Assembly: GCA_028876695.1 (NCBI GenBank)
Contig: JAGWRH010000111.1
Span: 1-33,459, forward strand
Source: Acidobacteriota bacterium
GTDB lineage: Bacteria > Acidobacteriota > Terriglobia > Acidiferrales > UBA7541
Reading direction: 5' to 3'
Length of the DNA: 33,459 bases
Shown here piece after piece: positions 2,618 through 33,459 of the stretch. Position 1 is the stretch's first letter; each line of letters opens with the position of its first letter. Made by a program: the position numbers and the translations under genes. The notes below the pieces were generated by a model. That model searched no databases, was not told the origin of the DNA, and saw only the letters and a list, made by a program, of their open reading frames with translations.

Positions 2618-4189
2618 ATGATGACACATGCTAATTTGGACGCGCGCCGTGCGCCCACGCCATGGTCCTGGTCCAACCGAGTTTTGCTTCTTTCACTCGC
2701 CGGTATTTTCTTCCTGACTCTTTATCCATTCGAGTTCGACCCACAACGATTGGCGAGCTTTCTGTCCAGTTTTGCTCTAAACGGCTGGAGAAAGGGACTG
2801 GATGATGTCCTAGGCATCTTCCTGAATATCTTGCTATTCATTCCCTTCGGCTTTGGTCTCGCGGAAAAGCTCCGTGAACGGGGAAAATCGAGGTCCGCAA
2901 CACTCATCGCCGTTTATGCCGCGGGTGCTTTGCTCTCCTATTTCGTCGAACTTTTGCAGTTCTATATTCCAAGTCGTGATTCGGGCTGGGGGGATGTCAT
3001 TACCAATTCATTCGGCGCGTTCACCGGCGCGTGGATCTTCGAAGCCGCCGGAGCGAGGATCATCGCCTGGTTTAGTGCGCTCGAGCAAGAGTTGGATTCG
3101 TCATTAAGTATTCCAACGATCGGGGTGATCGTCGCTCTCTACACCGGACTGTGGTGCCTATTGGCTGCGCCGCTACAGAAACAAGTAAGGATCACCAACT
3201 GGGTGCGCGATTCATTTCTTGCCGTAGGTGACCACGCATCCCTTTACCCTGCACCACCATGGCAAGGCCGCATGCTGGAACTGGACATTTGGAATCGCAG
3301 TTTGTCCTCGCAGCTAGCCCGTAGGCTTACAGCCCAGCAACCAACCGAGGCCGGGGCGTCAGACGCGCTGGCTGTTTACAAATTTTCCGGACCGGCGCCA
3401 TTTCACGACCTTGAACACTTCCTGCCTGATCTCGACTGGGCCTCCCAAACACCCCGTACCGCCGACGGTGCGCTATTCGACGGGCGTTCGTGGTTGATTT
3501 CTGCTGGCGGTGCGCCCATGCTCGTCAGCTCCGTAGAGGGTTCCGGGCAGTTCGCCCTACGGCTAATTTGCCAGCCGGCCAAAACCAGCCATACGGATGC
3601 GACGATTGTCTCAGTGTCGTCCCCATCCGGGACGATCAATATGGAATTGGGGCAATACGGATCCTCACTCGCGTTCTGGTTCCGGAATCGATTGTCGACG
3701 CGACGATCGAGGATGGGCTGGAACGTTCCGCAGGTATTCGCGACCAATCAAACGCGCAATGTGTTAATAAGTTTCAACGGTTCCGTTTTGTCGCTGTACG
3801 TGGACGGTCGAGAATACAGTAAACATTATGAGCTCGGCCCGGGCGTCGCTCTTGCGCGGTACGTCCGGCGCCTAAAAACCGAGGAGCTAGAGGGGTACGA
3901 ATTCATCTTGTATGCGATGATATTCATCCCCGTAGGATGCCTGCTCGTGTTCGCCTGGCGCAAATCCGATGTCGGCTGGATTGAACGGTCGTCGTTCTTG
4001 CTGGCGGGCCTTTTGCTTCCGGCCGTGGCCTTGGAATGGGTGGTGGCCAGTGTGGCAGGACGGACAATGTCGCCAGGAGAGATCTGTTTTTCCGTGCTGC
4101 TGGCGCTGGCGGGCTGTGCCTGGATGAATGCGGATCGCGGCTCTTCCGGGGCATTTCGACGCGCGCAGGAACTTGTTTCCGCGAGGTGA
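2618..4189 (+). CDS. VanZ-like membrane protein with central LamG/concanavalin-like jelly-roll domain and C-terminal TM helices
   Basis: 523-aa ORF. The N-terminus has the VanZ-family pattern (LNILLFIPFGFGL ... VELLQFYIPSRDSGWGDVITNSFGAFTGA). The central segment LRLICQPAKTSHTDATIVSVSS...LAFWFRNR...NVLISFNGSVLSLYVDGREY is typical of LamG-type domains. The last ~110 aa contain three hydrophobic helices. Confidence 0.8.
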   Translation: MMTHANLDARRAPTPWSWSNRVLLLSLAGIFFLTLYPFEFDPQRLASFLSSFALNGWRKGLDDVLGIFLNILLFIPFGFGLAEKLRERGKSRSATLIAVYAAGALLSYFVELLQFYIPSRDSGWGDVITNSFGAFTGAWIFEAAGARIIAWFSALEQELDSSLSIPTIGVIVALYTGLWCLLAAPLQKQVRITNWVRDSFLAVGDHASLYPAPPWQGRMLELDIWNRSLSSQLARRLTAQQPTEAGASDALAVYKFSGPAPFHDLEHFLPDLDWASQTPRTADGALFDGRSWLISAGGAPMLVSSVEGSGQFALRLICQPAKTSHTDATIVSVSSPSGTINMELGQYGSSLAFWFRNRLSTRRSRMGWNVPQVFATNQTRNVLISFNGSVLSLYVDGREYSKHYELGPGVALARYVRRLKTEELEGYEFILYAMIFIPVGCLLVFAWRKSDVGWIERSSFLLAGLLLPAVALEWVVASVAGRTMSPGEICFSVLLALAGCAWMNADRGSSGAFRRAQELVSAR

Positions 4190-21191: not shown

Positions 21192-22622
21192 ATGATGGCC
21201 CGCCCAGAAACAACAACGTCGGCCCGCGAGCGGATGAGTGCGGCGATCCGCGATTTGCAGGAGCTTCTCGGCGGCCGCGCGACCACCGCGGACATTGTTC
21301 GCGAGCACCACAGCCATGGCGAGTCATACCATCCAGCTGCCGCTCCAGACGTGGTGTGCTTTCCGCATACGACGGAAGAGGTGAGCGAGATTCTGAAAGT
21401 CAGCCGCCGGCATCAGGTGCCGGTGATCCCGTTCGGCGCCGGCACTTCGATGGAGGGGCAGATCAACGCGATTCGCGGCGGAATCACGATCGATATGCGC
21501 GAGATGAACAAGATTCTGCGCATTAGTCCCGAGGATTTGCAGGCGACAGTGCAAGCGGGCGTACCGCGGAAGGAATTGCAAAGGGCGCTGGCCAATACCG
21601 GATTCACGTTTTTCATCGATCCGGGTGCGGATGCGACGATTGGGGGTATGACGTCAACGCGTGCTTCGGGAACCACGGCTGTGCGATACGGCACGATGCG
21701 GGAAAATGTGCTGGCGCTCACCGTGGTCCTCGCGGATGGACGCGTGATCCACACGGGATCGCGCGCTCGAAAATCCGCGGCTGGTTACGATCTGACGCAT
21801 CTTTTCGTCGGCGCGGAGGGCACGCTGGGCGTGATTACCGAAATCACGCTTCGCCTGCATCCGCTCCCTGAAGCGGCAGGCGCAGCCTGCGCAACATTTC
21901 CAACGGTTCGCGACGCGGTAGAGGCGGCGATCGGCGTCATTCAGCTTGGCGTGGCGGTGGCGCGCATCGAGTTGATGGACGAGGGGCAAATCGACGCATG
22001 CAATCGATATTCGAAAACGAGTTATCCGGTTGCGCCGATTTTATTTTTCGAGTTTCACAGCGACAGCACGCGCGGCGTGAACGAACAGGCCGAAACCGTC
22101 AGGAAATTGGCTGAAGAGAGCGGCGCGACGGGATTTCAATGGTTCACATCGCCTGAAGAGCGCGAGACGCTTTGGAAGATGCGCCATGAGGCCTACTTCG
22201 CCACGCTCGCGATCCGCCCCGGCGGTAAAACGTTTACGACGGACATCTGCGTGCCGATTTCGCGGCTGGCGGATTGCATCGTGGAATCGAAGAAGGACGT
22301 GGCGGACGCGCCGTTCCCTGCCGTGGTCGTCGGGCACGTGGGCGACGGAAACTTCCACATGGCTTTCGTGCTGGATCCGAATAATCCGGCGGAACACGAC
22401 GAAGCATTGCGGCTCGAGGAAAAGATCATCCGGCGCGCGCTGGAAATGGGGGGCACGTGCACGGGCGAACATGGCATCGGCTTCGGGCGCAAAAAATATT
22501 TGCCGGTTGAGCACGGGGCGGCACTGGAAGTGATGCGAGCGATCAAGCAGGCGCTCGATCCGGATGATCGGATGAATCCCGGGAAAATGGTGGATCCACG
22601 ACCGCTGGATGGCGCGGTTTAG
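21192..22622 (+). CDS. FAD-linked oxidase, D-lactate dehydrogenase (cytochrome) / glycolate oxidase GlcD-like
   Basis: 476 aa. The FAD_binding_4 pattern is VPVIPFGAGTSMEGQ. The C-terminal FAD-oxidase domain ends in GGTCTGEHGIGFGRKKYL...MRAIKQALDPDDRMNPGK, typical of GlcD/Dld. Confidence 0.9.
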   Translation: MMARPETTTSARERMSAAIRDLQELLGGRATTADIVREHHSHGESYHPAAAPDVVCFPHTTEEVSEILKVSRRHQVPVIPFGAGTSMEGQINAIRGGITIDMREMNKILRISPEDLQATVQAGVPRKELQRALANTGFTFFIDPGADATIGGMTSTRASGTTAVRYGTMRENVLALTVVLADGRVIHTGSRARKSAAGYDLTHLFVGAEGTLGVITEITLRLHPLPEAAGAACATFPTVRDAVEAAIGVIQLGVAVARIELMDEGQIDACNRYSKTSYPVAPILFFEFHSDSTRGVNEQAETVRKLAEESGATGFQWFTSPEERETLWKMRHEAYFATLAIRPGGKTFTTDICVPISRLADCIVESKKDVADAPFPAVVVGHVGDGNFHMAFVLDPNNPAEHDEALRLEEKIIRRALEMGGTCTGEHGIGFGRKKYLPVEHGAALEVMRAIKQALDPDDRMNPGKMVDPRPLDGAV

Positions 22623-22654
22623 CGCCGTGCGTTTCTAACTGCGGTAAAATTCCT

Positions 22655-23848
22655 TCAGCAGGCCCGTTTCCAGCTTGCGGGCGCGTCGATGTACGAGCGG
22701 TCAAGATCCGCGACCGAGGCACATCCGAGGAGCTTCAAAACGCGTTCCAAGTCGGCGCGAAGGATTTGAAGCGCGCGCGCAACGCCTGCTTCGCCCGCGG
22801 CGCTGAGTCCGTAGGCATAGGCGCGGCCGATGAGCACGGCGCGGGCGCCAAGGCAGATCGCCTTGGCAATGTCACTTCCGCGGCGCACACCACCATCCAT
22901 AAGGACAACACCGCGGCTGCCGACCGCCTCGACAACTTCCGGCAATGCACGGAGAGATGCCGCGACACAATCGAGTTGCCGCCCGCCGTGATTCGATACG
23001 ACAACTCCTGCAGCGCCCTCGTCCATCGAGCGGCGAGCGTCGTCGCCGGTAAGCACCCCTTTGACGATGATCGGTCCCTTCCAGGCATCGCGCAACCACC
23101 GAACGTCGCTCCACGTGACCACCGAACGGCTCAGCGCCGCCTGGGTTTCCGCCAGCGGCATCGCTCCGCGGCCGGGAACGATCACGTTGGGCAACGTCAG
23201 CATTCCGCCATCGCGCAAGAATCCGGCTAGCCAGCTTGGCTTCGCCAGCACTTGCGGCAAATGCGGGACCTTGGCGAGGAAGCTTGGTCCGGTGAGGGCG
23301 CCTGCGCCGTTGCGGACGTCGCGCTCGCGCAAACCGAACGTGCCAGTGTCGATCGTAATCGCCAGAACCGTGAATCCCGCCTTCTGAGCCCGTTCGAGGG
23401 TAGCTTCGGCGGCTTCGCGCCCGCCGACGAGATATAGCTGATACCAACGCGGCCCGCTGGAAGCCTGCGCTACATCTTCAAGCCGGCTGCCGGAGATGGT
23501 GGAAAGTACGTAACCTACGCCCGCCTTCCCGGCGGCCCGCGCCGCGACCACTTCACCGCGCGGCCACATCATTCGCGTGAATCCAACCGGCGCGAGCAAC
23601 AGTGGCATTGAAAGATTGCCGCCCAGTACCTCGGTGCGGATGTCGCATCGGTCCACAAACAGTGCGTTGCGTGGGCGGAATGTGACGTCCTCGAATGCGC
23701 GGACGTTTTCGCGCAGTGTGACTTCGCCCTCGGCGCCGCCATCGACGTACTCGAAGACTGCACGCGGCAACCGCCGCTGCGCCGCGCGGCGCAGATCCGC
23801 GATATTGACGACGCGCGGCAGCGCGACTCTGCGTTCCGCGCGCGTCAT
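22655..23848 (-). CDS. FMN-dependent alpha-hydroxy acid dehydrogenase/oxidase (LldD / mandelate dehydrogenase / glycolate oxidase family)
   Basis: The track ORF runs to 24307 and overlaps the divergent ThDP gene. I chose the ATG at 23848 (MTRAERRVALPRVVNIADLRRAAQRRLPRAVFEYVDGGAEGEVTLRENV). The diagnostic motif VVSNHGGRQLD is present. Product length is 397 aa. Confidence 0.9.
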   Translation of the reverse strand: MTRAERRVALPRVVNIADLRRAAQRRLPRAVFEYVDGGAEGEVTLRENVRAFEDVTFRPRNALFVDRCDIRTEVLGGNLSMPLLLAPVGFTRMMWPRGEVVAARAAGKAGVGYVLSTISGSRLEDVAQASSGPRWYQLYLVGGREAAEATLERAQKAGFTVLAITIDTGTFGLRERDVRNGAGALTGPSFLAKVPHLPQVLAKPSWLAGFLRDGGMLTLPNVIVPGRGAMPLAETQAALSRSVVTWSDVRWLRDAWKGPIIVKGVLTGDDARRSMDEGAAGVVVSNHGGRQLDCVAASLRALPEVVEAVGSRGVVLMDGGVRRGSDIAKAICLGARAVLIGRAYAYGLSAAGEAGVARALQILRADLERVLKLLGCASVADLDRSYIDAPASWKRAC

Positions 23849-23995
23849 CGCTGGTCGCCCTCTCTCGGCGAAGATACCACTCGATTGAGAAGGTGCAAGG
23901 AAACCCCTTTCGCGCGGCCATTCTACCCGGTATTCTCTAGATTTTGTTGGGCAGATATATGATCGGCAGCGCTGAGCGGTTCGAGGAGACCAGCA

Positions 23996-25642
23996 ATGAA
24001 GGCCGGTGACGCGATCGCGGAAATCCTCAAACGCGAGGGCGTCGAGATTATTTTTGGATACCCCGTAAATCACCTGCTCGAATCCGCGGCCGCGCTTGGG
24101 ATCCGCCCGATCATCGTGCGACAGGAGCGCGTTGGACTGCACATGGCGGATGCGCTTTCGCGCCTGAGCAGCGGCCGAAAGCTCGGGGTGTTCGCCATGC
24201 AGCACGGCCCGGGCGCTGAGAACTCGTTTGGCGGAGTGGCGCAGGCATTCAGCGAATCCGTGCCGATACTGGTGCTGCCGATGGGTTATCCGCGCCGCAT
24301 TGCGCAAATTGATCCCAATTTCCGCTCTGCGGTGAGCATGCAGACCGTGACGAAGTCCGCTGAAGCAATCTGGTCAACCGCCGAGATCCCAAACATCTTT
24401 CGCCGCGCGTTTTCGCGCCTTCGCAACGGACGCGGCGGGCCGGCAGTTATCGAGATACCGATGGACGTTTTTGGCGAGGAAGTTCCCGAGCCAATCGCGT
24501 ACGGGCCCGTTGTTTCCGCGCGGTATGCTCCGGATCCAGCGGAGGTCCGGCGCGCGGCACAGGCTTTGGTCGAAGCGAAAAACCCCGTCATCTATGCCGG
24601 GCAAGGCGTCCATTGGGCGCTCGCTTGGCGCGAACTGAAATCGCTGGCCGAGATGCTGGGCGCACCGGTGGCCACGAGCCTGCAAGGAAAGAGCGCGTTC
24701 CCGGAAAATCATCCGCTCGCGCTCGGCGCCGGAGGAAATTCGTTTCCGGCGACGGTGCCGCATTTTCTGCGGAACGCCGACTGGATTTTCGGCGTTGGCT
24801 GCAGCTTTACGCAAAGCACGTTCGCTGTGGCCATGCCGCCCGGCAAGAAGTTTATTCATGCCACGCTCGATCCGAATCACATCAACAAGGACGTGCCCGC
24901 TGAGATTGCTCTAATCGGAGACGCGCAGTTGACGCTTGAAGGGCTGTGCGGCGAACTGACCAAACTTTTGCGAATGCCTCAGCCGAGGTCATGGCCTGTG
25001 GAGGCTGAAATCGCGCGCGTCCGCGAGGCGTGGCTTGCCGAATGGTCCTCGCGCATTAATTCGGACGAGGAGCCGTTCTCGCCATACCGCGTACTACGCG
25101 ATTTGCAACGCACCGTGGATGTGGCTAACACAATCATCACGCACGACGCTGGGAGCCCGCGCGATCAGCTCGCGCCATTTTGGGTCAGCACGGAGCCGCT
25201 CAGTTATATTGGGTGGGGAAAGACGACGCAACTCGGCTATGGCCTCGGACTGGCGATGGGTGCGAAGCTCGCTTGTCCCAATAAGCTCTGCATCAATGTG
25301 TGGGGCGACGCGGCAATCGGCTTCACCGGCATGGATTTTGAAACCGCCGTGCGCGAACGGATCCCGATCCTCTCAATCCTCCTCAATAATTTCAGCATGG
25401 CCATGGAAATCCCGATCATGCCGATATCGACGGAAAAATATCGCTCGACGGATATTTCGGGCGACTACGCAGCCATGGCGCGTGCGTTCGGCGGATATGG
25501 CGAGCGGGTGACGTCGATCAAGGAAATCGTACCGGCGATTCGGCGCGGGATCGAGCAGACGCGCAAGGGCGTACCGGCCCTCCTGGAATTTATTACGAAG
25601 AAGGAGACCGCGCTATCGCGTCAATATCATTCGCCGAGCTAG
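23996..25642 (+). CDS. Thiamine-diphosphate-dependent enzyme (acetolactate synthase / benzoylformate decarboxylase superfamily)
   Basis: 548 aa with the three-domain layout. The N-terminal PYR domain has GVEIIFGYPVNHLL...HGPGAENSFGGVAQAFSESVPILVL. The ThDP motif is GDAAIGFTGMDFETAVRERIPILSILLNN. SD GAGGAG lies 8 nt upstream of the ATG. Confidence 0.9.
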   Translation: MKAGDAIAEILKREGVEIIFGYPVNHLLESAAALGIRPIIVRQERVGLHMADALSRLSSGRKLGVFAMQHGPGAENSFGGVAQAFSESVPILVLPMGYPRRIAQIDPNFRSAVSMQTVTKSAEAIWSTAEIPNIFRRAFSRLRNGRGGPAVIEIPMDVFGEEVPEPIAYGPVVSARYAPDPAEVRRAAQALVEAKNPVIYAGQGVHWALAWRELKSLAEMLGAPVATSLQGKSAFPENHPLALGAGGNSFPATVPHFLRNADWIFGVGCSFTQSTFAVAMPPGKKFIHATLDPNHINKDVPAEIALIGDAQLTLEGLCGELTKLLRMPQPRSWPVEAEIARVREAWLAEWSSRINSDEEPFSPYRVLRDLQRTVDVANTIITHDAGSPRDQLAPFWVSTEPLSYIGWGKTTQLGYGLGLAMGAKLACPNKLCINVWGDAAIGFTGMDFETAVRERIPILSILLNNFSMAMEIPIMPISTEKYRSTDISGDYAAMARAFGGYGERVTSIKEIVPAIRRGIEQTRKGVPALLEFITKKETALSRQYHSPS

Positions 25643-25660
25643 TACGAGCGCAAACCGGCC

Positions 25661-27712
25661 TCAGTTACCGGACGGCCGGGCCGGCTCCTCTGGGCCCGCA
25701 GCCGGCACGACCACAATCTGGCCGTACTCCCACGGATACTCCTTGCAGTGGTAGGCGTAGGTACCCGGCTTGTCGAACGTATGCTGCCCGATGTCGAGTG
25801 GATGGAGCGTACCCGTTGACCACGACCCGTCCACGGCAACGATCGTATGGTCGAGCACGCCGTTGTTTCGCCACATGACCCGGGTGCCAACGGTAACTTG
25901 CGCGCGATACGGATCGAACTCGTATTCGTCCTCGATCACGTGCTGGCCGGTAAGGCCCATGTCGCGTACGGCTGAAGCCGTAAGGATCGTATCGGTCTTG
26001 GTGACGGCCCCGGAGAAATCCTGCTGGGGAGGGGTCGGCGGCGCGGGCCGCTGCCCGATTGTTCCGCCCAGCTTGAACGCCCACACCTGGCCGCCCGCAA
26101 TGCTGACGATGTACTGCTCGCCCGCATTTTCAAACGCGACCGGCGGCCCGCCAATGGGCGACCCCGTCTGAAATTGCCACCGCAGAGAACCATTTGAGGC
26201 GTCGTACGCCTGCAGATTGCCATCGCCGGCCATCTGAAAAACCAAACCTCCCGCGGTCGCTAGGGCTCCGCTCGGTTTGCTATCGTGAAATTCCTTTTTC
26301 CAGGCGATCCGGTTCGTGCGGCTATCGATGGCGGCCAGAACTCCATAACCCATTTTGTTCAGACCCGGCACGCGATTGCTAAAACCCAGGCTGAAAAAGT
26401 CCGGATCTTTTGTCCGTCGAAACCACTGCAGCGCCGCATTTCCAGTAGCGTAAAAAAAATGCGTTTGCGGATCATAGGCCATCGGCGTGGAACGCATCCC
26501 GTACACGGGCTCGAGCAGATTCGGCTTGTCCACCGATCCGGGCGTAAAGAAGCATCCCAGATCGAAACCGGCGGGTATCTTTTGAGTTTTCCAATAATCG
26601 CAATCGGGAAGAACGGGTTCGGCACCGACGGGGTACGGTTGGGTTTTGGCCGTCTTTTGGTACGGATCCTGCGGTACGCGCCGCTCTTCAATGCGGCCGA
26701 GCGGTTTTCCCGTTTCGCGGTTGAACATAAACAGATATCCGTCGGTTCGGATTGCCGCGATCGCCTTTACCGTTTGACCGTTCGCGTCCGCATCGAACAG
26801 CACCGGAGATTCGGCGATGTCCGCTTCCCAAATGTCGTGGTGAACCACCTGGTAATACCAGCGCAGGTTGCCGGTTTTAGGATCCAGCGCGATCACGCAA
26901 TCGGTATAGAGATTATCCCCCGGCCGATATTCGCCGCCGTATTGCGGAACGGCATTGCCGGTCACGTAGAAGTCCACTCCGAGTTGCGGATCGTAAACTC
27001 CTTCAAGCCAAACGGCGCCGCCGCCGTGCAACCACGCGTTGTTATTCTTTGGCCATGTGTTGGAACCCGGCTGTCCCGGATTCGGCACCACATAAAAGCG
27101 CCATGCCTCTTTGCCGGTCATGGCATCGAATGCCACGATTTGTCCACGGTATCCATAATCCGCGTTCGTGCCGATCGACACGAGACCATCAGCAAACAAT
27201 GGAGCGCCGGAGGCGCCGCCGGTTGGTTCACCGGAGGGCGCAGCGAGCGAAACTTTCCAAACCGGTTCGCCGGTCTTCTCGCGCAGCGCGATCAAGCTCG
27301 CGTTAGCGGGATGCCACAGGCCGACGAAAACCATACCGTCGCCCACGGCCACGCCTCCATGCGACGGCTCCGTGCCGGCCGGAGCGTGATACTGCCATGC
27401 GACCTTTCCGGTGTTTATGTCGTACGCGTACACGTACGGCGGCGCGGTTACGAACATCAGCCCCTGGTCGACCACAGGCGTGGCGCGAGAACTCGGCGCC
27501 GGTACCATTTTGTCGGACACCCACGCCGCTCCCAGCTTGGTGACATTCTGGGCGTTGATGTCGCCGAGCGGAGAATATCGCTGATTATCCGCACCGTTCA
27601 CGGTGGACCACTGCGCGCTCGACGGCTGCGCGGCAATCGCGATGCATACGAGCACCGCGACCACCAACGCCCAAAACCGTGCCGCCTGCCATTTCCGCTG
27701 AGTTCGACGCAT
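25661..27712 (-). CDS. Periplasmic PQQ-dependent dehydrogenase (8-bladed propeller) fused to a C-terminal cupredoxin-like domain
   Basis: Sec signal MRRTQRKWQAARFWALVVAVLVCIAIAAQPSSA-QW. The quinoprotein pattern is GDNLYTDCVIALDPKTGNLRWYYQVVHHDIWEAD, with repeated W-motifs. The last ~93 aa (25664-25942) read FDPYRAQVTVGTRVMWRNNGVLDHTIV...GTYAYHCKEYPWEYGQIVVV, a plastocyanin/amicyanin-like layout. SD GGAGG is upstream. Confidence 0.85.
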   Translation of the reverse strand: MRRTQRKWQAARFWALVVAVLVCIAIAAQPSSAQWSTVNGADNQRYSPLGDINAQNVTKLGAAWVSDKMVPAPSSRATPVVDQGLMFVTAPPYVYAYDINTGKVAWQYHAPAGTEPSHGGVAVGDGMVFVGLWHPANASLIALREKTGEPVWKVSLAAPSGEPTGGASGAPLFADGLVSIGTNADYGYRGQIVAFDAMTGKEAWRFYVVPNPGQPGSNTWPKNNNAWLHGGGAVWLEGVYDPQLGVDFYVTGNAVPQYGGEYRPGDNLYTDCVIALDPKTGNLRWYYQVVHHDIWEADIAESPVLFDADANGQTVKAIAAIRTDGYLFMFNRETGKPLGRIEERRVPQDPYQKTAKTQPYPVGAEPVLPDCDYWKTQKIPAGFDLGCFFTPGSVDKPNLLEPVYGMRSTPMAYDPQTHFFYATGNAALQWFRRTKDPDFFSLGFSNRVPGLNKMGYGVLAAIDSRTNRIAWKKEFHDSKPSGALATAGGLVFQMAGDGNLQAYDASNGSLRWQFQTGSPIGGPPVAFENAGEQYIVSIAGGQVWAFKLGGTIGQRPAPPTPPQQDFSGAVTKTDTILTASAVRDMGLTGQHVIEDEYEFDPYRAQVTVGTRVMWRNNGVLDHTIVAVDGSWSTGTLHPLDIGQHTFDKPGTYAYHCKEYPWEYGQIVVVPAAGPEEPARPSGN

Positions 27713-27921
27713 GTTCCGTACGTCCTCCCGATACCTGAGTGCGTGTGCCGAAAAAATCCGGCGCGGTCACCGCCGCTTCTGTATACTTGCATCGTTCTAT
27801 TGTTGTCAAGACACCGTTGCCTCCCTGCCGGGCAGTCGCGTGGCCGCGGAAAAAGCTTCGGCGTTGAGCGCGGGCGCGGAGCTCTCTCTGATTAAGGAAG
27901 CAATTCGGGAGACGATTGACG

Positions 27922-28497
27922 ATGAGCAGCGACGGCGCGCGGCCATTCATGCGTCGGACAAAAGTTGAATCCGCCCCTATCCGAACAGGGCGCCTCGCGA
28001 GCGTGGAGCACCGGTATGACCGCGCTCCGCACATCGACTCGCTGATCCAGTTGGTGTCTGTGCGCGTCGTCCGGCTCTCGGACTTACTTCTGCGCATCGG
28101 CAAGATTACATTCGAGCGGCGATTCGGCGTAAAGCTAACGGAGCTCCGGATTCTGATCATTCTCGGGGCTTTTCATTCCATTTCGGTGAACGAAATAAGC
28201 CGCAGAACGCATATCGACAAGGCCTGGATCAGCCGTTCGCTGCGAGGACTGCTCGGCCGCAAGTTGATTAAGAGGACGCCCCATCCCGCCGATAACCGCG
28301 CTTCCTCGTTGTCCTTGACGAAGAAGGGCGAGGAGCTGTTACGGCGTATCGCGCCGGTCGCGGAGGAGTATCAGCGCCAGCTGCTTGAGGGACAGAAAAG
28401 CCGCGACGTGGAACAAATGCTCGACCTGCTGGCGGAACGCGCCGAAGGAATTTACCAGCACGAAAGTCGGCAGCAGAAGCAGGTGGCGCGCCGTTAG
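27922..28497 (+). CDS. MarR-family transcriptional regulator
   Basis: The winged-helix core is LTELRILIILGAFHSISVNEISRRTHIDKAWISRSLRGLLGRKLIKRTPHPADNRASSLSLTKKGEELL. I prefer the ATG at 27922, which follows GGGAGA at 9-nt spacing. The track start at 27916 is TTG. Confidence 0.85.
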   Translation: MSSDGARPFMRRTKVESAPIRTGRLASVEHRYDRAPHIDSLIQLVSVRVVRLSDLLLRIGKITFERRFGVKLTELRILIILGAFHSISVNEISRRTHIDKAWISRSLRGLLGRKLIKRTPHPADNRASSLSLTKKGEELLRRIAPVAEEYQRQLLEGQKSRDVEQMLDLLAERAEGIYQHESRQQKQVARR

Positions 28498-28548: not shown

Positions 28549-30339
28549 TTAGGCCCATTCGTCAATCGAAGTGCCACGGTCCGGCATAAAATCCGTGGCG
28601 AACCACACGCTTGCGGTCTTTCCGCCGGTGACGATCGCGTGAATGGCATTCGCATTCGCGAACGGTTTGATCAGCGTATCGCCGGTAACACCCAGCCAAT
28701 CCGCGTACGGTTTCAGTCCTTGGCGCGCCAGCGGAGCGAGCATGCTGGACACAATCGAATTCCCCCAGTACGACTCCGCGGTCTTCTGAACGTTCTGCGA
28801 GAGCCACTGACCGAGCGCCGCCTTGGTTTTGAAACCTTGCACGCCACTCAACAGATCCGCAACGGATGGGTCCATAATCAGCGTGGCGCCCATCCCTGAA
28901 AGCGACGACATATAGTCGCGCATCAGGAATTGCGGTGCGTAGTGCTGCTCCACCCAACCCGTGCTATTGATGAAATTCCAGCCGGTGAAGATCGTCACCA
29001 CGCTGTCCGTTGCCTGATGCCCCAACTGGACGTGCAAAGGCTGCCATCCCGGCGGCAGAGCCTCCTCGTTTTCGGCGAAGCAGAGGTTGTCGTACCGGAG
29101 CGGGTTGCTGAGCGAAGCGAAACCGGTCACGCCCTCGACGTATCCCTGAATGACTTTGTGTATCAGGGTCATCGAGCGGCCGATAACTGCGTTCGCCTCA
29201 TTGTCCGGGCCCAGAGCGCCCATCCCGGAGTTCATGCCGATCTTGTTGCGGATCGGACCGTTGACCACGACCATCTGCGCGATCGAGGTCGTGGAATCCT
29301 GATACGGCACTCGAGTTGAGAGCGCCAGGATGACCGGCAGATATTCCGGCCTCGCGCCGGCCATAACGGCAATTGTGGCGACTTTCTCGACGGTGAACGG
29401 GCGGCGCGAGCCGAACGTCCCCGCGGCGCTTTTCACCACTTCATCCGGCGCGTGGCTGGTGCCCTTGAGCATGGCGGCGACCCGCTCCGGCGTGGGAAGG
29501 ATTACCGGGTTGTAGTCCGTCCAGCCCTTCTGCCGAAACAGGTCCTGCAGGTTGTCCTGGCTATCCGGCCGAAGCATGCGCGGCTCGGCCGCAGGCGCAT
29601 CTGGCGACGGTCCTGACAAATTCTCCCTGGCCGAGAGCGGTTTTGTAAGCCCATCGACAATTGCGCGCATAAAAGGCGCGCCGCTGACGGTATCTTTGCC
29701 GTGGACGTACGACGCCAGCACCGAGCGCGGCTGGCCGGAGAACGGAAAAGGTACGCCGACAAAGCGCAGCGGCATGCCGGTGTTGTACTGGAAATTAGCT
29801 CCGAGCCCGAACGACACGACGTTTGAGCCCGCAAGAGACACGGTTGGGATGTGATACTTCTGCTCGATTTCTCCAGCTTCGCGGCTCACGGCCCCGACGC
29901 AGCCGTGTCAACCGGCTACACCGATGACGACGCCGTCGCCGTGATTCCCGGCGATCTCCTTCCACAGGCCCGGATCATCGGTAACGAAGTTGCCGGCCTT
30001 GATCTTGATGATTATCTTTGCGCTGGGAATGTTCTGCGCAAACCATTTCTGGATTTCTTCCAGGATGCCGTCGTTCTGCTGCATCCCTCCCCAGTCTGTA
30101 TCCACCAGGTAAATGGTTTTACCTTCGAGCGTGCTGAGCCGCGGCGCAAGCGGAACGCGGTCCGCGAACCTCGTTGCGATCGCGGGATTCAGCACCGACA
30201 CCATACTGTTATCCGACCCGCAATTTGCGGCTTCTGGGACACGTTTTGAGGCTGCCGGAGAGGTACGAGCAAATGACGGGCTAACCGCCGCGAGGGCCGG
30301 ACTTACACCGAGCAGCGCCAACATTTTTCGTCGATCCAT
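28549..30339 (-). CDS. Putative selenoprotein, paralog 1 (~596 aa): Tat-like signal, GrdB/PrdB-like UxxC redox module, ~450-aa module of unknown family; in-frame UGA at 29910-29908
   Basis: Track ORFs 29908-30441 and 28549-29889 share one frame (both upper bounds are divisible by 3). Hand translation across the junction gives ...GDGVVIGVAG-TGA-HGCVGA-GTG(V)-SREAGEIEQKYHIPTV. The GTG used by the track as a start is only 6 codons after the TGA. I chose the ATG at 30339 because GGAGG lies at 30350-30346 with a 6-nt spacer. The N-terminus reads MDRRKMLALLGVSPALAAVSPSFA. The coding potential of both halves is certain. Read-through as Sec is an inference. Confidence 0.7.
29880..29907 (-). promoter_or_regulatory. 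Candidate SECIS-like hairpin(s) immediately 3' of the UGA of paralog 1
   Basis: The mRNA reads UGA CACGGCUGCGUCGGGGCCGUGAGCCGCG. Option A: CACGGC (29907-29902) pairs perfectly with GCCGUG (29892-29887), leaving a 9-nt loop. Option B starts 11 nt after the UGA: CGGGGC (29896-29891) pairs with GCCGCG (29885-29880) with one G-G mismatch and loop CGUGA. Folded by eye only. Confidence 0.4.
29908..29910 (-). other. In-frame UGA, candidate selenocysteine codon (motif GVAG-U-HGC)
   Basis: Plus-strand tca at 29908-29910. The flanking codons are GGT (Gly) on the 5' side and CAC GGC TGC (His-Gly-Cys) on the 3' side. Paralog 2 has a UGA at the same motif position. Confidence 0.7.
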
Positions 30340-30376: not shown

Positions 30377-32140
30377 TCAGTGGGCACCGTTACTTGGTTC
30401 ATCCGGCAGGCCGCAACTTCCGTCGGCGCAGCCGTCTGCAAGCGGCTTCGCCCGCCATTTATCGACAGAAGCGCTGACGGTGTGCGAAAAATCCGAAACC
30501 TTCCACATTGGGCTCGTTTCGCCCCCGACGACCACGATGTTCATGTTTTCCGGCTTATCATATGGGGCAATCAGCGCGTCTTTTGGCAATTTCTTCCAGG
30601 TAGCGTAAGGTTCCACGCCTTGAATCGCAACCGGACCCATGAGCATGTCGATCAGGTCGTTGTCCCAAAATTCGCCCGCGGGCATTTTGAAGTTTAATGA
30701 AAGCCACCGGCAAAAATCGAGCTTGGTTTGGAAACCTTCGTCGTGCTTCAGGTGGCGCGCTACGAGCGGGTCGAGTATGAGCGTCGCGGCAGAGAACAAT
30801 CCGGGCAGCGGCCGCAATTGGGTGAACATGTCCTCGCCAATCGATCGACGCGATGATCCGACGACATTGTTGATAAAATTCCAGCCGCGGAAGAGGCTGA
30901 CTGCGCTTTCATGCGCCTCGTAGCCCTTTTGCGCATGAAACGGTTCCCAGGGACTCCGTTCCTCGTTTTCCGCCACGCACATGTTGTTGTACCCGATCGG
31001 ATTGCCCTGCGACGTCCAGAACTGCTTTCTCAACCGGAAATAGCCCCAATTGATGCTCAGAAGAGTCCAGGCGCGGCCGATTACGGAATTGGCGAGCGCT
31101 CGGGGGCTGAATGCGCCAATACCGGAATTCATCTCGATCTCGTTGCGAATGGGACCGTTCACCAAAAGCATGGTCGCAAACGGGGTGGTCGAGCCGGGAA
31201 TCGAAGGCTGACCCGTTGAGGCCACGGCCAGAAGAACGGGCAGATGCTCGGGCCGCGCCCCGGCCATCACCCCAACAATCGCCACCATCTCGACCGTGAA
31301 TTTCAAGTGTTCGCGCGTGTCGTGAAGATAGATCTCGCCGACCACCTCGTCCGGCGCATGTGTAGTGCCGGTGAGCATATGCCCAACGCGCTCCTCGGTA
31401 GGCAGGATGATCGGAAGACCGTCGGTCCAGCCGCGCTCGTAGAACAGGCGCTGCAGATTGTCCTCTGTATCGGGTTCCAGCAGTGCTTGCCGTACGCCGG
31501 TCCGCGTGACTGGCACGTACGTATCGGCGCGCTCATCTTCTCCAAGCGGTTTGGTGAGGGCTTCAATGATCTCGTCAGTCACGCTGCGATGGCTTGCCGG
31601 ATCCGTTCCCTCGATGTATTTGCGAAGCACCGCCGCGGTCATTCCCGCGACCGGATGCGGTGTGTATGTAAAGCGGAGCGGAACGCCATGGAAGCGGCGA
31701 TCGTCCGCAAGAACGGCGGCGAATTCGAGGGTGGACACCGGCGCCGTCGGAATTCCGTATTCCTGTTCAAGCGTGCGGGAGCAAGTGGCAACTGCCACCG
31801 CGCAGCCGGGTCAACCAGCGACGCCCAAAATCGCGGCGTCACCGTGCTCCTCGATTTCCAGCCACAAATCTTTGGTGTCGTCGCGAAACACGTTGCCCGG
31901 CTTTCGCCGGCGCACGGTCTTCACGGCCGGCATATGCTCCTGGAACCATGACTGCATTTCATCCAGAAATTTGCCGCTGCCGCCGAATCCTGTATCGACC
32001 AGATAAACGGTCTTGCCTTTCAGCGTATCGAGACGTGGCGCCATGCCTGACGATGCGCCTCTTCCTGGTGGCGCTCCATCGGGAGTGATCGTTCGATAGC
32101 CTTCGGGATTCAACACTGCGGACGTTACTTGCGTAGCCAT
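30377..32140 (-). CDS. Putative selenoprotein, paralog 2 (~587 aa): UxxC redox module plus ~450-aa module of unknown family; in-frame UGA at 31813-31811
   Basis: Track ORFs 31811-32140 and 30377-31798 share one frame (both upper bounds = 1 mod 3). The junction reads ...DAAILGVAG-TGA-PGCA-GTG(V)-AVATCSRTLEQEYGIPTA. The ATG at 32140 is preceded by AGGAG (32152-32148) with a 7-nt spacer. The protein aligns along its whole length with paralogs 1 and 3. Confidence 0.7.
31785..31798 (-). promoter_or_regulatory. Candidate SECIS-like hairpin 12 nt 3' of the UGA of paralog 2
   Basis: The mRNA reads UGA CCCGGCUGCGCG GUGGC AGUU GCCAC U. This gives a perfect 5-bp stem (31798-31794 / 31789-31785) and a tetraloop AGUU containing G-U. 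A flanking G-U wobble is possible. Folded by eye only. Confidence 0.45.
31811..31813 (-). other. In-frame UGA, candidate selenocysteine codon (motif GVAG-U-PGC)
   Basis: Plus-strand tca at 31811-31813. The flanking codons are GCT GGT (Ala-Gly) on the 5' side and CCC GGC TGC (Pro-Gly-Cys) on the 3' side. Confidence 0.7.
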
Positions 32141-32198: not shown

Positions 32199-33459
32199 TC
32201 AGATCCACTCATCGACCGGCGCGCTCTTGACGTATCGCATCCCGCCGTAATCCCAATACAGATTATTCGACGATCCAGTGACGAGGACGTTGATTTGCGC
32301 TTTGCTTCGGAAATGCGGCGTCGATTCGTCCTGGCTCTGATAGAGAAACTGGGTAAGCTTCTCGACCGTGTCGTAGCCCTCGCTCTTCATGTAATTGGCC
32401 ACGGCCGGGCTAAGGACGGCCAGGATTCCGAAGAGTTGATCCTGATCGTTCGAGATGTTTTTCAGTTCCTGGGCGAAGTTCATATCTTTCGACCATATCG
32501 CGTGTCTGGAGTTCTTGGCCGAAATCACGCCCCAGCCCTCGAAGATGCTCACCACGTTGTCGCCCGCCTTGAATCCGTGGCGGGCGCTGAACGGCTGCCA
32601 TGGCGATTCTTTTTCGTTTTCGGCAATAATGATGTTGGCGTAATTCATCGGATTCCCGATCACGCCCATGTAAGTCTCACCGGCCTTGCCGCAATTTCCT
32701 CCGTTCAGCGAAAGCAGCGCATAGGCCCGGCCGATGGTGGCATTGGCGTGGCTGAAAGGCCCCAGTGCGCCGATGTGATAATTCAGGCCGATCTGATCGC
32801 GAATCGGACCGTTAATCACAACCGCTTCGGCAAACGAATTGTCCGAGCTTGAGATGGATTCCTTGCCGATGGATGCAATTGCCAAGATCACCGGAAAATA
32901 TTTCGGGTCGGCTCCCGCCATCACGGCATTCACCGCTACCTGCTTCACCGTGTACGACCAGTCTTCATAGACCCCTGGTGTCGGCGACATACGCCCGACG
33001 ATCTCGTCGGGCTTTCGGCTGGTGCCCTTGAGCATCGCTTCAACACGGTCCTCGGTCGGAAGCACGATGGGCAGGTAATCCGTCATTCTTTTTTCGATGA
33101 ACAAGCGCTGCAGGTTATCGGAGCTGTCGGGACCGAACGTTGCCGCGCCTGCGGATTGCGGGATCGTCCGGCTCGCGGTGTCTTCGTTGTTGAGCGGTAC
33201 CGTCAGTTGGTCAACGATCTCCTTCATCACGGCTTTGCCAGTGACGGGATCATTGCCGTCGATCACGTCGCGCTGGAGTTGTTCCGCCGTCTTGCCCCAG
33301 ACGGGCGATTTCACATAGGTGAATCGCAAGTGCGGCATACCTTTTTTCGCGGCATTTTCCTGCACGAGCTGCTGGAAATACTGGGTGATGATCGAGACGG
33401 TCGGCTTGTGATATTCGGATTCGAAGAAGACGTTATGGCCAACGACCGCTGGCGAGCAG
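32199..33459 (-). CDS. Paralog 3 of the same family; 5' end runs off the window at the UxxC motif
   Basis: The track calls GTG at 33365 as the start, but the frame stays open to the window edge. Hand translation of 33458-33366 gives CSPAVVGHNVFFESEYHKPTVSIITQYFQQL, followed by VQENAAKKGMPHLRFTYV... The Cys at 33458-33456 aligns with the Cys of U-x-G-C in paralogs 1 and 2. Base 33459 (C on the minus strand) fits the GGC Gly codon seen in both other copies. Confidence 0.8.
   Translation of the reverse strand, partial: CSPAVVGHNVFFESEYHKPTVSIITQYFQQLVQENAAKKGMPHLRFTYVKSPVWGKTAEQLQRDVIDGNDPVTGKAVMKEIVDQLTVPLNNEDTASRTIPQSAGAATFGPDSSDNLQRLFIEKRMTDYLPIVLPTEDRVEAMLKGTSRKPDEIVGRMSPTPGVYEDWSYTVKQVAVNAVMAGADPKYFPVILAIASIGKESISSSDNSFAEAVVINGPIRDQIGLNYHIGALGPFSHANATIGRAYALLSLNGGNCGKAGETYMGVIGNPMNYANIIIAENEKESPWQPFSARHGFKAGDNVVSIFEGWGVISAKNSRHAIWSKDMNFAQELKNISNDQDQLFGILAVLSPAVANYMKSEGYDTVEKLTQFLYQSQDESTPHFRSKAQINVLVTGSSNNLYWDYGGMRYVKSAPVDEWI

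What the first reader, a model, noticed from the sequence alone, without database searches (positions are those of the whole stretch)
29880..29910. In-frame TGA no. 1 inside GVAG-U-HGC, followed by GC-rich hairpins at SECIS-like distance
Directly read sequence: GGT GTA GCC GGT TGA CAC GGC TGC GTC GGG GCC GTG AGC CGC. The ORF caller's start (GTG at 29889) is only 6 codons after the TGA, and the intervening codons encode the conserved xGC. TGA is an ordinary stop for other genes here (for example, 4187-4189), so this would be site-specific recoding. Two mutually exclusive hairpins can form. One is a perfect 6-bp stem directly after the UGA. The other is a 6-bp stem with one mismatch that begins 11 nt after the UGA and has a GU-containing loop. 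That 11-nt spacing is the one known to matter for the E. coli fdhF SECIS upper stem-loop.
Basis: partly seen in the sequence, partly recalled or inferred. Interest (0 to 1): 0.8.

Follow-up and report, generated by a model that had tools for sequence, protein, structure and literature searches.

The report
Selenocysteine codon in UGSC-family gene
The in-frame TGA at 29908-29910 is almost certainly a selenocysteine codon inside one 596-residue redox protein of the known UGSC selenoprotein family, which gene callers have wrongly cut into two genes.

Summary
It is a new, mis-annotated member of a known selenoprotein family, not a new kind of system.

- **One gene:** on the minus strand, 30339..28549 is a single gene. 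It has a twin-arginine signal, a UGSC domain (Pfam PF24696) that runs across the TGA, and a ~370-aa (about 445 aa counted from the TGA) C-terminal domain with no Pfam match and no PDB match by sequence or fold.
- **Conserved TGA:** all 68 copies matching the G-x-x-G-(stop/Cys)-x-x-C motif in the Acidobacteriota loci and the window carry TGA here. None has TAA, TAG or Cys.
- **Cys homologues:** more distant full-length homologues (545-570 aa) have Cys at this position in a CxxC motif.
- **Synonymous variation:** the 10 codons after the TGA have the lowest synonymous variation in the whole gene.
- **Candidate SECIS:** It shows compensatory changes at two pairs. Its G22-U23 loop position recurs in every paralogue family.
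- **First hairpin:** it is equally conserved in gene-1 orthologues but absent from the paralogues and too close to the UGA.
- **Paralogues:** two tandem paralogues (TGA at 31811-31813, and one just past the window end) behave the same way.
- **Not shown:** the Sec machinery of this organism, selenium insertion itself, and the protein's function.

The parts
28549..30339 (-). Gene 1, a single 596-codon selenoprotein gene. ATG at 30339, Sec-TGA at codon 144, TAA stop at 28551-28549. Public annotation splits it into a 177-aa ORF and a 446-aa ORF.
   Evidence: The reading frame is continuous and the protein is conserved across the TGA in 32 distinct orthologues. The start is set by the conserved MDRRKML signal.
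30268..30339 (-). Twin-arginine (Tat)-type signal peptide MDRRKMLALLGVSPALAAVSPSFA, specific to the gene-1 paralogue.
   Evidence: The sequence is conserved in the gene-1 orthologues, three with N, V or N in place of D2, M6 or K5. The Tat assignment rests on the RR-x-hydrophobic-AxA pattern (established knowledge) and was not run through a predictor.
29716..30195 (-). UGSC domain (Pfam PF24696), residues 49-208. It spans the TGA.
   Evidence: 37.8 bits against a gathering score of 25. (NCBIfam NF041046, 19.1 bits, below its 125-bit cutoff).
29908..29910 (-). In-frame TGA, the inferred selenocysteine codon (residue 144).
   Evidence: TGA in 68 of 68 motif-matching copies; aligned with Cys in five full-length homologues.
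29899..29910 (-). U-H-G-C redox motif (UxxC).
   Evidence: In the AlphaFold model of the Cys homologue P0133, the equivalent C102-x-x-C105 lies between strand 94-100 and helix 105-118.
29879..29897 (-). Hairpin 2, the candidate SECIS. Positions 14-20 pair with 26-32, the loop is CGUGA with G22-U23 at 29889-29888, and there is a G17-G29 mismatch in this copy. An optional lower stem extends it to 29905-29874.
   Evidence: 94% of cells paired, compensatory changes at 17:29 and 18:28.: -9.3 kcal/mol alone and -15.4 with the lower stem; lowest synonymous variation in the gene.
29887..29907 (-). Hairpin 1, the competing stem directly after the UGA (positions 4-10 with 18-24).
   Evidence: 98% paired, one-sided changes only; preferred by RNAalifold; absent in the gene-2 family.
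28552..29652 (-). C-terminal domain of unknown function, about residues 230-596. Conserved motifs are WTD-LPxxLPTE, VAxxxVMAG, VNGP, ANxxIGR and ENEE.
   Evidence: no Pfam, NCBIfam or PDB sequence match; no Foldseek PDB match with E below 1e-3; 3499 relatives with E up to 1e-3.
30377..32140 (-). Gene 2, a tandem paralogue of 587 codons with no signal peptide. It has an in-frame TGA at 31813-31811 in GVAG-U-PGC and a hairpin at 31803-31781 (loop AGUU, G22-U23 at 31792-31791).
   Evidence: (compensatory changes at 17:28 and 21:24).
32199..33459 (-). Gene 3, a third paralogue cut by the window end. Orthologues read GVGH-TGA-SYC, and the TGA would lie at 33467-33465. Its hairpin (loop GGUC) lies at 33453-33438.

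Best explanation
The stretch 30339..28549 on the minus strand is one gene for a 596-residue selenoprotein. Translation does not stop at UGA 29910-29908. A stem-loop in the mRNA just downstream (positions 14-32, with G22-U23 in its apical loop) would recruit SelB carrying Sec-tRNA(Sec) while the ribosome holds the UGA in its A site. Selenocysteine would then be inserted as the first residue of a U-H-G-C motif.

That motif sits at the strand-to-helix junction of an N-terminal UGSC domain, where it should form a redox-active selenenylsulfide/selenol-thiol pair. The UGSC domain is fused to a conserved C-terminal domain of about 370 residues and unknown function. That domain presumably binds the substrate or partner on which the UxxC centre acts. 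Gene 1 also carries a twin-arginine signal, so the folded protein is probably exported to the periplasm. Two tandem paralogues use the same device.

Shown here: the single-gene architecture, the conserved TGA, the Cys/TGA pairing, the RNA-level constraint and the covariation. Inferred: SelB/SECIS action, the redox role, Tat export and the function of the C-terminal domain.
For: 1. **Conserved TGA.** TGA is present at this codon in all 68 motif-matching copies in 40 Acidobacteriota MAG loci and the window. These fall into six motif families (U-HGC, U-PGC, U-N[AG]C, U-DGC, U-WGC, U-EAC) at 42-90% identity. The 13 gene-3 orthologues (U-SYC) also carry it.
2. **No close Cys form.** The top 120 database relatives are nearly all the 445-447-aa downstream piece (one is a 405-aa fragment). 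No close orthologue has lost the stop.
3. **Cys homologues.** P0131, P0133, P0141, P0151 and P0182 (548-569 aa) align Cys with the TGA inside CxxC. They have the same UGSC plus C-terminal architecture. NCBI names P0131 'UGSC family (seleno)protein'.
4. **Domain spans the TGA.** The Pfam UGSC match covers residues 49-208, across the TGA at residue 144.
5. **Suppressed synonymous change.** Codon entropy is 0.29 bits in codons +1..+10, against 0.98 upstream and 1.09 downstream. The three lowest of 493 ten-codon windows in the gene all overlap this spot.
6. **Third-position invariance.** Positions 15, 27 and 30 are invariant. They lie outside hairpin 1 but are paired in hairpin 2.
7. **Covariation.** Hairpin 2 has pair 17:29 as GC/CG/GU and pair 18:28 as GC/AU/GU. 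Twelve cells change on both sides, against 4.0 +/- 1.5 in shuffles, and none to two in the shifted registers. The gene-2 family has CG/UA at 17:28 and GC/AU at 21:24.
8. **Shared loop position.** G22-U23 sits in the apical loop in all seven motif families (the six above plus U-SYC), even though stem sequences differ.
9. **Fit to the bacterial SECIS model** (PMC13188914): 5-nt loop, G in loop position 2 followed by U, 17 nt between the UGA and the loop, and -9.3 kcal/mol or lower.
10. **Same span as E. coli fdhF.** The stem-loop covers nt 15-31, the span reported for the fdhF upper stem-loop, which lies 11 nt from the UGA (PMC8659212).
11. **TGA is a normal stop elsewhere in the window**.
12. 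**Family and phylum precedent.** UGSC-containing proteins are an established UxxC selenoprotein family, including a fusion form (PMC2398784). Acidobacteria contain selenoproteins (PMC1794560).
Against: - No selA, selB, selC or selD was found in the window or in about 500 kb of related loci, so the Sec-decoding trait of this lineage is not demonstrated.
- Rfam gives no match.
- Folding energies are not better than shuffled sequence.
- RNAalifold on the gene-1 family predicts hairpin 1, not hairpin 2.
- In the window's own copy, hairpin 2 has a G-G mismatch, leaving only 3 contiguous pairs under the loop. It fails a strict 4-bp filter.
- One orthologue (L010) has U in place of G22.
- Covariation counts involve related sequences and may reflect few evolutionary events.
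- The proteins score below the NCBIfam NF041046 cutoff.
Confidence: 0.88

Rival explanations
1. The Sec reading is right, but the functional RNA element in gene 1 is hairpin 1 (positions 4-24, directly after the UGA), or a switch between the two hairpins, rather than hairpin 2.
For: - Hairpin 1 is paired in 98.4% of cells across 27 distinct orthologue sequences, and every observed substitution keeps pairing.
- It is slightly more stable than hairpin 2 on average, -10.6 against -9.7 kcal/mol.
- RNAalifold selects it.
- It is the minimum-free-energy structure of the 60-nt window segment.
Against: - It shows only one-sided (wobble) changes and no compensatory pairs.
- Its 5' arm is the conserved H-G-C codons, so protein constraint explains much of its conservation.
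- It is absent in the gene-2 family (mean -0.5 kcal/mol), and only a short 3-bp stem forms at positions 4-13 in gene-3 orthologues.
- Its loop starts only 7 nt after the UGA, outside the 16-37 nt range of the bacterial SECIS model (PMC13188914).
- It would bury G22-U23 in a stem.
- By inference, a ribosome with the UGA in its A site would cover most of positions 4-15 and melt it.
- Third-position invariance at positions 15, 27 and 30 is not explained by hairpin 1.
Confidence: 0.12
2. The UGA is recoded, but not to selenocysteine. One route is an acidobacterial tRNA(Sec)-like 'allo-tRNA' or another opal suppressor inserting Ser, Ala or Cys. Another is near-cognate read-through.
For: - Acidobacteria carry unusual 8/4 and 9/3 allo-tRNAs proposed to act as missense or nonsense suppressors. 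SelB-dependent Cys insertion at UGA has been proposed for deltaproteobacteria (PMC5389517).
- No Sec machinery could be shown here.
Against: - The UGA aligns with the first Cys of a CxxC motif in a family already documented as a UxxC selenoprotein family (PMC2398784).
- The downstream hairpin has the geometry and GU loop of SelB-binding elements (PMC8659212).
- If Cys were inserted, a plain TGC/TGT codon would be expected to appear among the 68 copies, and none does.
- The allo-tRNA paper reports no opal-decoding system tied to such genes in Acidobacteria.
Confidence: 0.05
3. Two separate genes. Translation terminates at the TGA, giving a truncated 143-residue N-terminal protein, and the 446-aa ORF starts independently at GTG 29889. 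This is how public annotation treats it.
For: - Gene callers and NCBI annotate the 445-446-aa piece as a hypothetical protein in many MAGs.
- G-rich sequence (GGGG, or GGAG in some orthologues) lies just upstream of the GTG.
Against: - The six codons between the TGA and the GTG encode the conserved xGC of the redox motif and are conserved as protein.
- The Pfam domain crosses the TGA.
- Homologues are single chains.
- The G-rich run is only 2-3 nt from the GTG, too close for a Shine-Dalgarno site, and forms part of the conserved stem.
- The stop is always TGA, never TAA or TAG, in 68 copies.
- Ending at GVAG would remove the helix that follows the strand in the model.
Confidence: 0.03
4. Pseudogene or assembly error. 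The TGA is a recent nonsense mutation or a sequencing artefact.
For: None beyond the presence of a stop codon.
Against: - The same TGA occurs in dozens of independently assembled MAGs from different studies, and in three to four paralogues per genome.
- Strong purifying selection acts on both sides.
Confidence: 0.01

Closest known systems
UGSC-containing selenoprotein family (Zhang & Gladyshev 2008, PMC2398784; Pfam PF24696; NCBIfam NF041046 'UGSC family (seleno)protein')
   Same: - The N-terminal domain matches PF24696 above its gathering score.
- It has a UxxC motif with Sec first, and Cys-containing homologues exist.
- A fusion of UGSC to an unknown conserved domain ('Unknown_1') was already reported.
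- NCBI gives the UGSC family name to a 560-aa Cys homologue with this architecture.
   Different: - The motif is U-H-G-C, U-P-G-C or U-S-Y-C, not U-G-S-C.
- Scores of 19 and 53.5 bits fall below the 125-bit equivalog cutoff of NF041046.
- This is a long form with a C-terminal domain of about 370 residues.
- Gene 1 has a Tat-type signal.
- There are three to four tandem paralogues, in soil and peat Acidobacteriota rather than aquatic samples.
- Whether 'Unknown_1' is this C-terminal domain could not be checked, because Figure S1A is held only as an image.
E. coli fdhF bacterial SECIS (upper stem-loop nt 15-31, bulged U17, loop G23-U24; PMC8659212) and the general bacterial SECIS model (PMC13188914)
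   Same: - It lies in the coding sequence immediately 3' of the UGA.
- The stem-loop spans nt 14/15-31/32, so it starts 11 nt after the UGA.
- It has a small apical loop with a conserved G-U.
- It has 17 nt between the UGA and the loop, an optional lower stem, and an energy of -7.5 kcal/mol or lower.
   Different: - GU is at positions 22-23, not 23-24.
- There is no bulged U17. Position 17 is paired, or is a G-G mismatch in the window copy.
- The loop is CGUGA in gene 1, and AGUU or GGUC in the paralogues.
- It has no Rfam match.
- SelB binding is untested.
GrdB/PrdB reductase selenoproteins (Pfam PF07355, UxxC)
   Same: - Both have a UxxC motif after a hydrophobic beta-strand, followed by a helix and a 'G-I/L-P/A-T' strand.
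- In an alphaproteobacterial MAG (L041), a GRDB-family ORF with an in-frame TGA lies 1.5 kb from a homologue of the C-terminal domain.
   Different: - The window proteins have no Pfam GRDB match.
- The profile comparison aligns the motifs but is not significant (E 0.021, probability 2%).
- This is a lead only.
Tat-exported selenoenzymes such as E. coli formate dehydrogenase-N FdnG (own knowledge)
   Same: It combines a twin-arginine signal with an internal Sec codon decoded in the cytoplasm before export.
   Different: - The two are not homologous.
- The protein has no Pfam match to a molybdopterin or Fe-S cofactor domain.
- Export is inferred from sequence only.

Membership tests
Bacterial selenoprotein gene (SelB/SECIS-dependent UGA recoding) | In-frame UGA conserved among orthologues, with coding conservation on both sides in the same frame | tested here: met
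   TGA in 68 of 68 motif-matching copies and in 13 gene-3 orthologues. No indels and a conserved protein across the TGA.
Bacterial selenoprotein gene (SelB/SECIS-dependent UGA recoding) | Homologues with Cys aligned to the UGA (Sec/Cys pair) | tested here: met
   P0131, P0133, P0141, P0151 and P0182 have CxxC with the first Cys in the UGA column.
Bacterial selenoprotein gene (SelB/SECIS-dependent UGA recoding) | Stem-loop fitting the bacterial SECIS model: 3-9 nt loop, G in the first two loop positions followed by G/U, 16-37 nt from the UGA, 4-16 bp upper stem, MFE of -7.5 kcal/mol or lower | tested here: met
   Loop CGUGA, 17-nt spacing, -9.3 to -15.4 kcal/mol. The stem is 7 pairs in most orthologues. 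The window copy has 3 + 3-4 pairs around a G-G mismatch and fails a strict contiguous-4-bp filter. Covariation is seen at two pairs.
Bacterial selenoprotein gene (SelB/SECIS-dependent UGA recoding) | Genome encodes selA, selB, selC (tRNA-Sec) and selD | not testable with these tools
   None found in the window or in 45 related loci. The rest of the genomes could not be read. The phylum is reported to contain selenoproteins (PMC1794560).
Bacterial selenoprotein gene (SelB/SECIS-dependent UGA recoding) | Selenium demonstrably incorporated at the UGA | not testable with these tools
   Needs 75Se labelling or mass spectrometry.
UGSC family (Pfam PF24696) | Match to the Pfam model above its gathering score | tested here: met
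   Gene 1 scores 37.8 bits and gene 2 scores 64.1 bits, against a threshold of 25.
UGSC family (seleno)protein, NCBIfam NF041046 equivalog | Score at or above the curated cutoff of 125 bits | tested here: not met
   19.1 and 53.5 bits. The Cys long-form homologues also score 37-86 bits. The long forms are therefore relatives of the family and not equivalogs of the short UGSC protein.
UGSC family | U/C-x-x-C motif at the equivalent position, literally U-G-S-C in the founding members | tested here: inconclusive
   UxxC is present at the aligned position, but it reads U-H-G-C, U-P-G-C or U-S-Y-C. Only P0182 has C-G-S-C.
E. coli fdhF-type SECIS | 17-nt upper stem-loop at nt 15-31, 11 nt from the UGA | tested here: met
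   C15-G31 stem, with an extra U14-A32 pair. The reference description is in PMC8659212.
E. coli fdhF-type SECIS | Bulged U17 and loop G23-U24 as SelB contacts | tested here: not met
   There is no bulged U. GU is conserved but lies at positions 22-23. This element works like an fdhF SECIS but is not that sequence family.
GrdB/PrdB (Pfam PF07355) | Match to the GRDB model or significant profile similarity | tested here: not met
   No Pfam hit. hhalign gives E 0.021 and probability 2%.

The most novel reading that the evidence does not exclude
The conserved C-terminal domain has no Pfam match and no PDB match by sequence or fold. It may be the catalytic or substrate-binding part of a so far undescribed enzyme family that is driven by interchangeable N-terminal redox modules. 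In Acidobacteriota the module is a UGSC-type UxxC with selenocysteine. In more distant homologues, one of them from an actinobacterium, it is a CxxC, and in Alphaproteobacteria it is an unrelated CxxC-bearing module. One paralogue would be exported by the Tat pathway as a periplasmic selenoenzyme. Three to four tandem Sec-containing paralogues per genome would make this a major and currently unannotated use of selenium in peat and soil Acidobacteriota.
Probability: 0.3. Interest if true: 0.6.

Novelty: new member of a known kind. Interest (0 to 1): 0.4.

Why it matters
- **Annotation.** Dozens of Acidobacteriota MAGs carry three to four of these genes. Public records list each as a truncated 445-446-aa 'hypothetical protein' plus an orphan upstream ORF. 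Recognising the Sec codon restores full-length proteins of about 590 aa and adds several selenoproteins per genome to a phylum credited with few.
- **Biology.** The result ties a large uncharacterised domain (3499 relatives with E up to 1e-3) to a selenol/thiol redox centre. It also predicts a periplasmic, Tat-exported member. Both give a concrete starting point for finding the function.
- **Method.** The locus gives a clean natural set of SECIS variants. Seven motif families share a GU position but have different stems, which is useful for defining what non-enterobacterial SelB proteins recognise.
- **Limit.** It does not change what is known about the mechanism of Sec insertion.

Tried and rejected
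- **Rfam.** Neither the gathering-threshold scan nor the permissive E-value scan gave any SECIS or other relevant hit.
- **Single-sequence folding.** Z-scores were -1.0 to +0.7, so stability alone is not evidence.
- **RNAalifold.** It chose hairpin 1 for the gene-1 family. I kept hairpin 2 as the SECIS candidate because of double-sided covariation, third-position invariance outside hairpin 1, spacing, and conservation of the geometry across paralogues.
- **Sec machinery.** ARAGORN on the window and 45 loci found only two tRNA-Met genes. Pfam on 19 window ORFs found no sel genes. Because those queries came from memory, that negative is weak.
- **Representative search.** I used the downstream 452 aa instead.
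- **'Unknown_1' comparison.** The 2008 UGSC fusion domain could not be compared. Figure S1A is stored as an image, and the sequence dataset is cut.
- **C-terminal domain.** The C-terminal region gave no PDB sequence match, and the full-length AlphaFold model of P0133 (pLDDT 83.7) gave no Foldseek PDB match with E below 1e-3. The best hits were generic alpha/beta folds with TM of 0.18 or less.
- **GrdB/PrdB homology.** The comparison was not significant.
- **Rejected readings.** I rejected two genes, a pseudogene, and lineage-wide TGA reassignment. TGA ends 9 of 18 genes here.
Full report
**What is in the sequence**

On the minus strand the window reads GGT GTA GCC GGT TGA CAC GGC TGC GTC GGG GCC GTG AGC CGC, with the TGA at 29910-29908. 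A 177-aa ORF ends at this TGA. A 446-aa ORF is called from the GTG at 29889, six codons later.

The same arrangement occurs twice more in tandem:
- Gene 2 (32140..30377) has GVAG-TGA-PGC at 31813-31811.
- Gene 3 (from the window end to 32199) starts in the window at the Cys of its xxC. Its orthologues read GVGH-TGA-SYC.

TGA is a normal stop here. Nine of 18 confident genes end in TGA, including 2618-4189. The window has 59% G+C, no tRNA gene and no Rfam match.

**One gene, not two**

- Read through the TGA, gene 1 and gene 2 match the Pfam UGSC family (PF24696) at 37.8 and 64.1 bits, against a gathering score of 25. In gene 1 the match runs from residue 49 to residue 208, while the TGA is codon 144. 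The domain is therefore interrupted by the stop.
- NCBIfam NF041046, 'UGSC family (seleno)protein', is also the best hit, but below its 125-bit equivalog cutoff.
- A scan of one genome per species returned 45 loci, 40 of them Acidobacteriota MAGs and most of those labelled Candidatus Acidiferrales. tblastn alignments cover both halves of the protein.
- In 32 distinct gene-1 orthologues, the protein is conserved without indels and in one frame on both sides of the TGA.
- All 68 motif-matching copies in these loci and the window carry TGA at this codon, never TAA, TAG or a sense codon. They fall into six motif families (U-HGC, U-PGC, U-N[AG]C, U-DGC, U-WGC, U-EAC) and go down to 42% identity.
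- Nearly all of the 120 closest database proteins are the 445-447-aa downstream piece (one is a 405-aa fragment), annotated as hypothetical where named. The split is universal in close relatives, and no close Cys form exists.

**Cys homologues**

An exhaustive HMMER search with the downstream part found 3499 relatives. Among them are full-length proteins of 545-570 aa whose match starts after residue 100 or later.

- Five of these (P0131, P0133, P0141, P0151, P0182) have Cys aligned to the TGA within CxxC (CSTC, CPGC, CGSC). Of the seven others fetched, P0123, P0129, P0140 and P0143 lack both Cys; the rest were not assessed.
- All tested full-length forms carry the UGSC Pfam domain followed by the same C-terminal region.
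- NCBI names P0131 (WP_358488424.1, Pseudonocardia) 'UGSC family (seleno)protein'.

A conserved in-frame TGA paired with Cys in homologues is the standard criterion for a selenoprotein gene (PMC13188914). UGSC-containing proteins have been listed as a UxxC selenoprotein family since 2008, including a fusion to an unknown domain (PMC2398784).

**The RNA element**

Positions are numbered from the U of UGA as 1.

| | Hairpin 1 | Hairpin 2 |
|---|---|---|
| Pairing | 4-10 with 18-24 | 14-20 with 26-32 |
| Loop | 7 nt (positions 11-17) | C21-G22-U23-G24-A25 |
| Mismatch in window copy | none | G17-G29 |
| Cells paired across 27 distinct orthologue sequences | 98.4% | 94.2% |
| Type of change | one-sided wobble only | compensatory at two pairs |

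- The compensatory changes in hairpin 2 are at 17:29 (GC 8, CG 5, GU 5) and 18:28 (GC 19, AU 7, GU 1). Twelve cells change on both sides, against 4.0 +/- 1.5 in shuffles, and none to two in the shifted registers.
- Synonymous variation collapses here. Codon entropy is 0.29 bits in codons +1..+10, against 0.98 upstream and 1.09 downstream. The three lowest of 493 ten-codon windows in the gene all overlap this spot.
- Third-codon positions 15, 27 and 30 are invariant. They are unpaired or outside hairpin 1 but paired in hairpin 2.
- The gene-2 family has its own hairpin, 15-20 with 25-30 plus a lower 11-13:31-33 stem, with loop GGUC or AGUU. It shows CG/UA covariation at 17:28 and GC/AU at 21:24. 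It has no equivalent of hairpin 1.
- Gene-3 orthologues have a GGUC loop at 21-24.
- In all seven motif families (the six above plus U-SYC), G22-U23 lies in the apical loop. The one exception is L010, which has U22.

Hairpin 2 fits the published bacterial SECIS model: a 3-9 nt loop, G in the first two loop positions followed by G or U, 16-37 nt from the UGA, and -7.5 kcal/mol or lower (PMC13188914). Here the loop is 5 nt with G second and then U. The spacing is 17 nt. The energy is -9.3 kcal/mol alone and -15.4 with a lower stem. It occupies the same nt 15-31 span as the E. coli fdhF upper stem-loop, which lies 11 nt from the UGA (PMC8659212). It differs in having GU at 22-23 rather than 23-24, and no bulged U17.

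**Caveats on the RNA**

- Folding energy is not better than shuffles.
- RNAalifold picks hairpin 1 for the gene-1 family.
- The window's own hairpin 2 has only three contiguous pairs under the loop and fails a strict filter. That filter passes 4.6% of all TGA triplets in the window.
- The case for hairpin 2 therefore rests on comparison, not thermodynamics.
- Hairpin 1 may be a by-product of the H-G-C and A-V codons, or may have a modulatory role.
- By inference, a ribosome holding the UGA in the A site would cover and melt hairpin 1 but leave the top of hairpin 2 free, as is proposed for fdhF.

**The protein**

- All gene-1 orthologues begin with a conserved MDRRKMLALLG[VA]SPALVAG.PS[FY]A (three with N, V or N in place of D2, M6 or K5). 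This places the start at ATG 30339 and looks like a twin-arginine signal peptide. Genes 2 and 3 lack it.
- An AlphaFold model of the Cys homologue P0133 (mean pLDDT 83.7, pTM 0.84) puts C102-x-x-C105 between strand 94-100 and helix 105-118. That is the usual position of a redox-active dithiol.
- The C-terminal part has no Pfam, NCBIfam or PDB sequence match. Foldseek of the full-length model against the PDB gives nothing with E below 1e-3. Its function is unknown.
- In alphaproteobacterial MAGs, the C-terminal domain is joined to a different N-terminal segment with a C-E-T-C motif. A GRDB-family ORF with its own in-frame TGA lies 1.5 kb away.
- That neighbourhood hints that the C-terminal domain generally works with a thiol or selenol redox module. 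The profile similarity between UGSC and that GRDB-like ORF is not significant.

**What is not shown**

- No selA, selB, selC or selD was found in the window or the fetched loci. The rest of these genomes could not be read.
- The literature reports selenoproteins in Acidobacteria (PMC1794560). It also reports unusual suppressor-like allo-tRNAs there (PMC5389517). A non-Sec decoding of this UGA remains formally open but unlikely.

**Verdict**

The locus is a Sec-containing, long-form member of the known UGSC selenoprotein family, mis-annotated in public data as two ORFs. It is present here in three tandem copies, and its SECIS candidate is hairpin 2.

It counts as a new member of a known kind. 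The moderately interesting extras are the paralogue expansion in Acidobacteriota, the Tat signal on one copy, and a large uncharacterised partner domain.

Noticed in passing
window 30268-30339 (minus strand): All gene-1 orthologues start with a conserved twin-arginine-type signal, MDRRKMLALLG...SFA. Genes 2 and 3 lack it. This paralogue is therefore probably a Tat-exported (periplasmic) selenoprotein. The true start is ATG 30339, not the TTG at 30441 listed by the ORF tool.
   Followed up: partly
window 30377-32140 (minus strand); TGA at 31811-31813: A second tandem paralogue has an in-frame TGA in GVAG-U-PGC. Its hairpin at 31803-31781 (loop AGUU) has its own compensatory changes in orthologues.
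   Followed up: yes
window 32199-33459 (minus strand): A third paralogue is cut by the window end. Orthologues read GVGH-TGA-SYC, so its Sec codon would lie at 33465-33467, just outside the window. Its GGUC-loop hairpin is inside the window at 33438-33453.
   Followed up: yes
L002 13405, L005 13404, L015 4197, L021 12777, L025 11004: A fourth paralogue family (GVAG-TGA-N[AG]C) lies 3-7 kb downstream of gene 1 in some related genomes. It is not present in this window.
   Followed up: partly
L010 about 6316 (gene-1 orthologue; position 22 counted from the TGA at 6295): This is the only copy in which the conserved loop G22 is replaced by U (loop CUUGA, Val to Leu). It may be a sequencing error, or SelB may tolerate the change.
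   Followed up: no
L041 3493-4770 and 5560-7008 (Alphaproteobacteria MAG OZ245815.1): A GRDB-family (PF07355) ORF has an in-frame TGA at 3997-3999 (VPI-U-PKC). It lies 1.5 kb upstream of a homologue of the C-terminal domain. That homologue has a different N-terminal segment with a C-E-T-C motif and no Pfam hit. This may be a functional link between the unknown domain and reductase-type selenoproteins.
   Followed up: partly
window 29860-29879 (codon 11 of the post-TGA stretch, about 29875-29877): The four-fold degenerate Ala codon 11 varies freely (GCT/GCC/GCG/GCA). With each variant, a different lower stem can form with positions 6-12. It is unclear whether this is selected or a by-product of the G+C content.
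   Followed up: no
window 21192-28497: Genes near the selenoprotein cluster encode a PQQ-dependent dehydrogenase (25661-27712), a MarR regulator (27916-28497), a TPP enzyme, an FMN-dependent dehydrogenase and an FAD-linked oxidase. Farther upstream (8.5-20 kb) is an exopolysaccharide export and synthesis cluster. Whether the oxidoreductases work with the selenoproteins was not examined.
   Followed up: no
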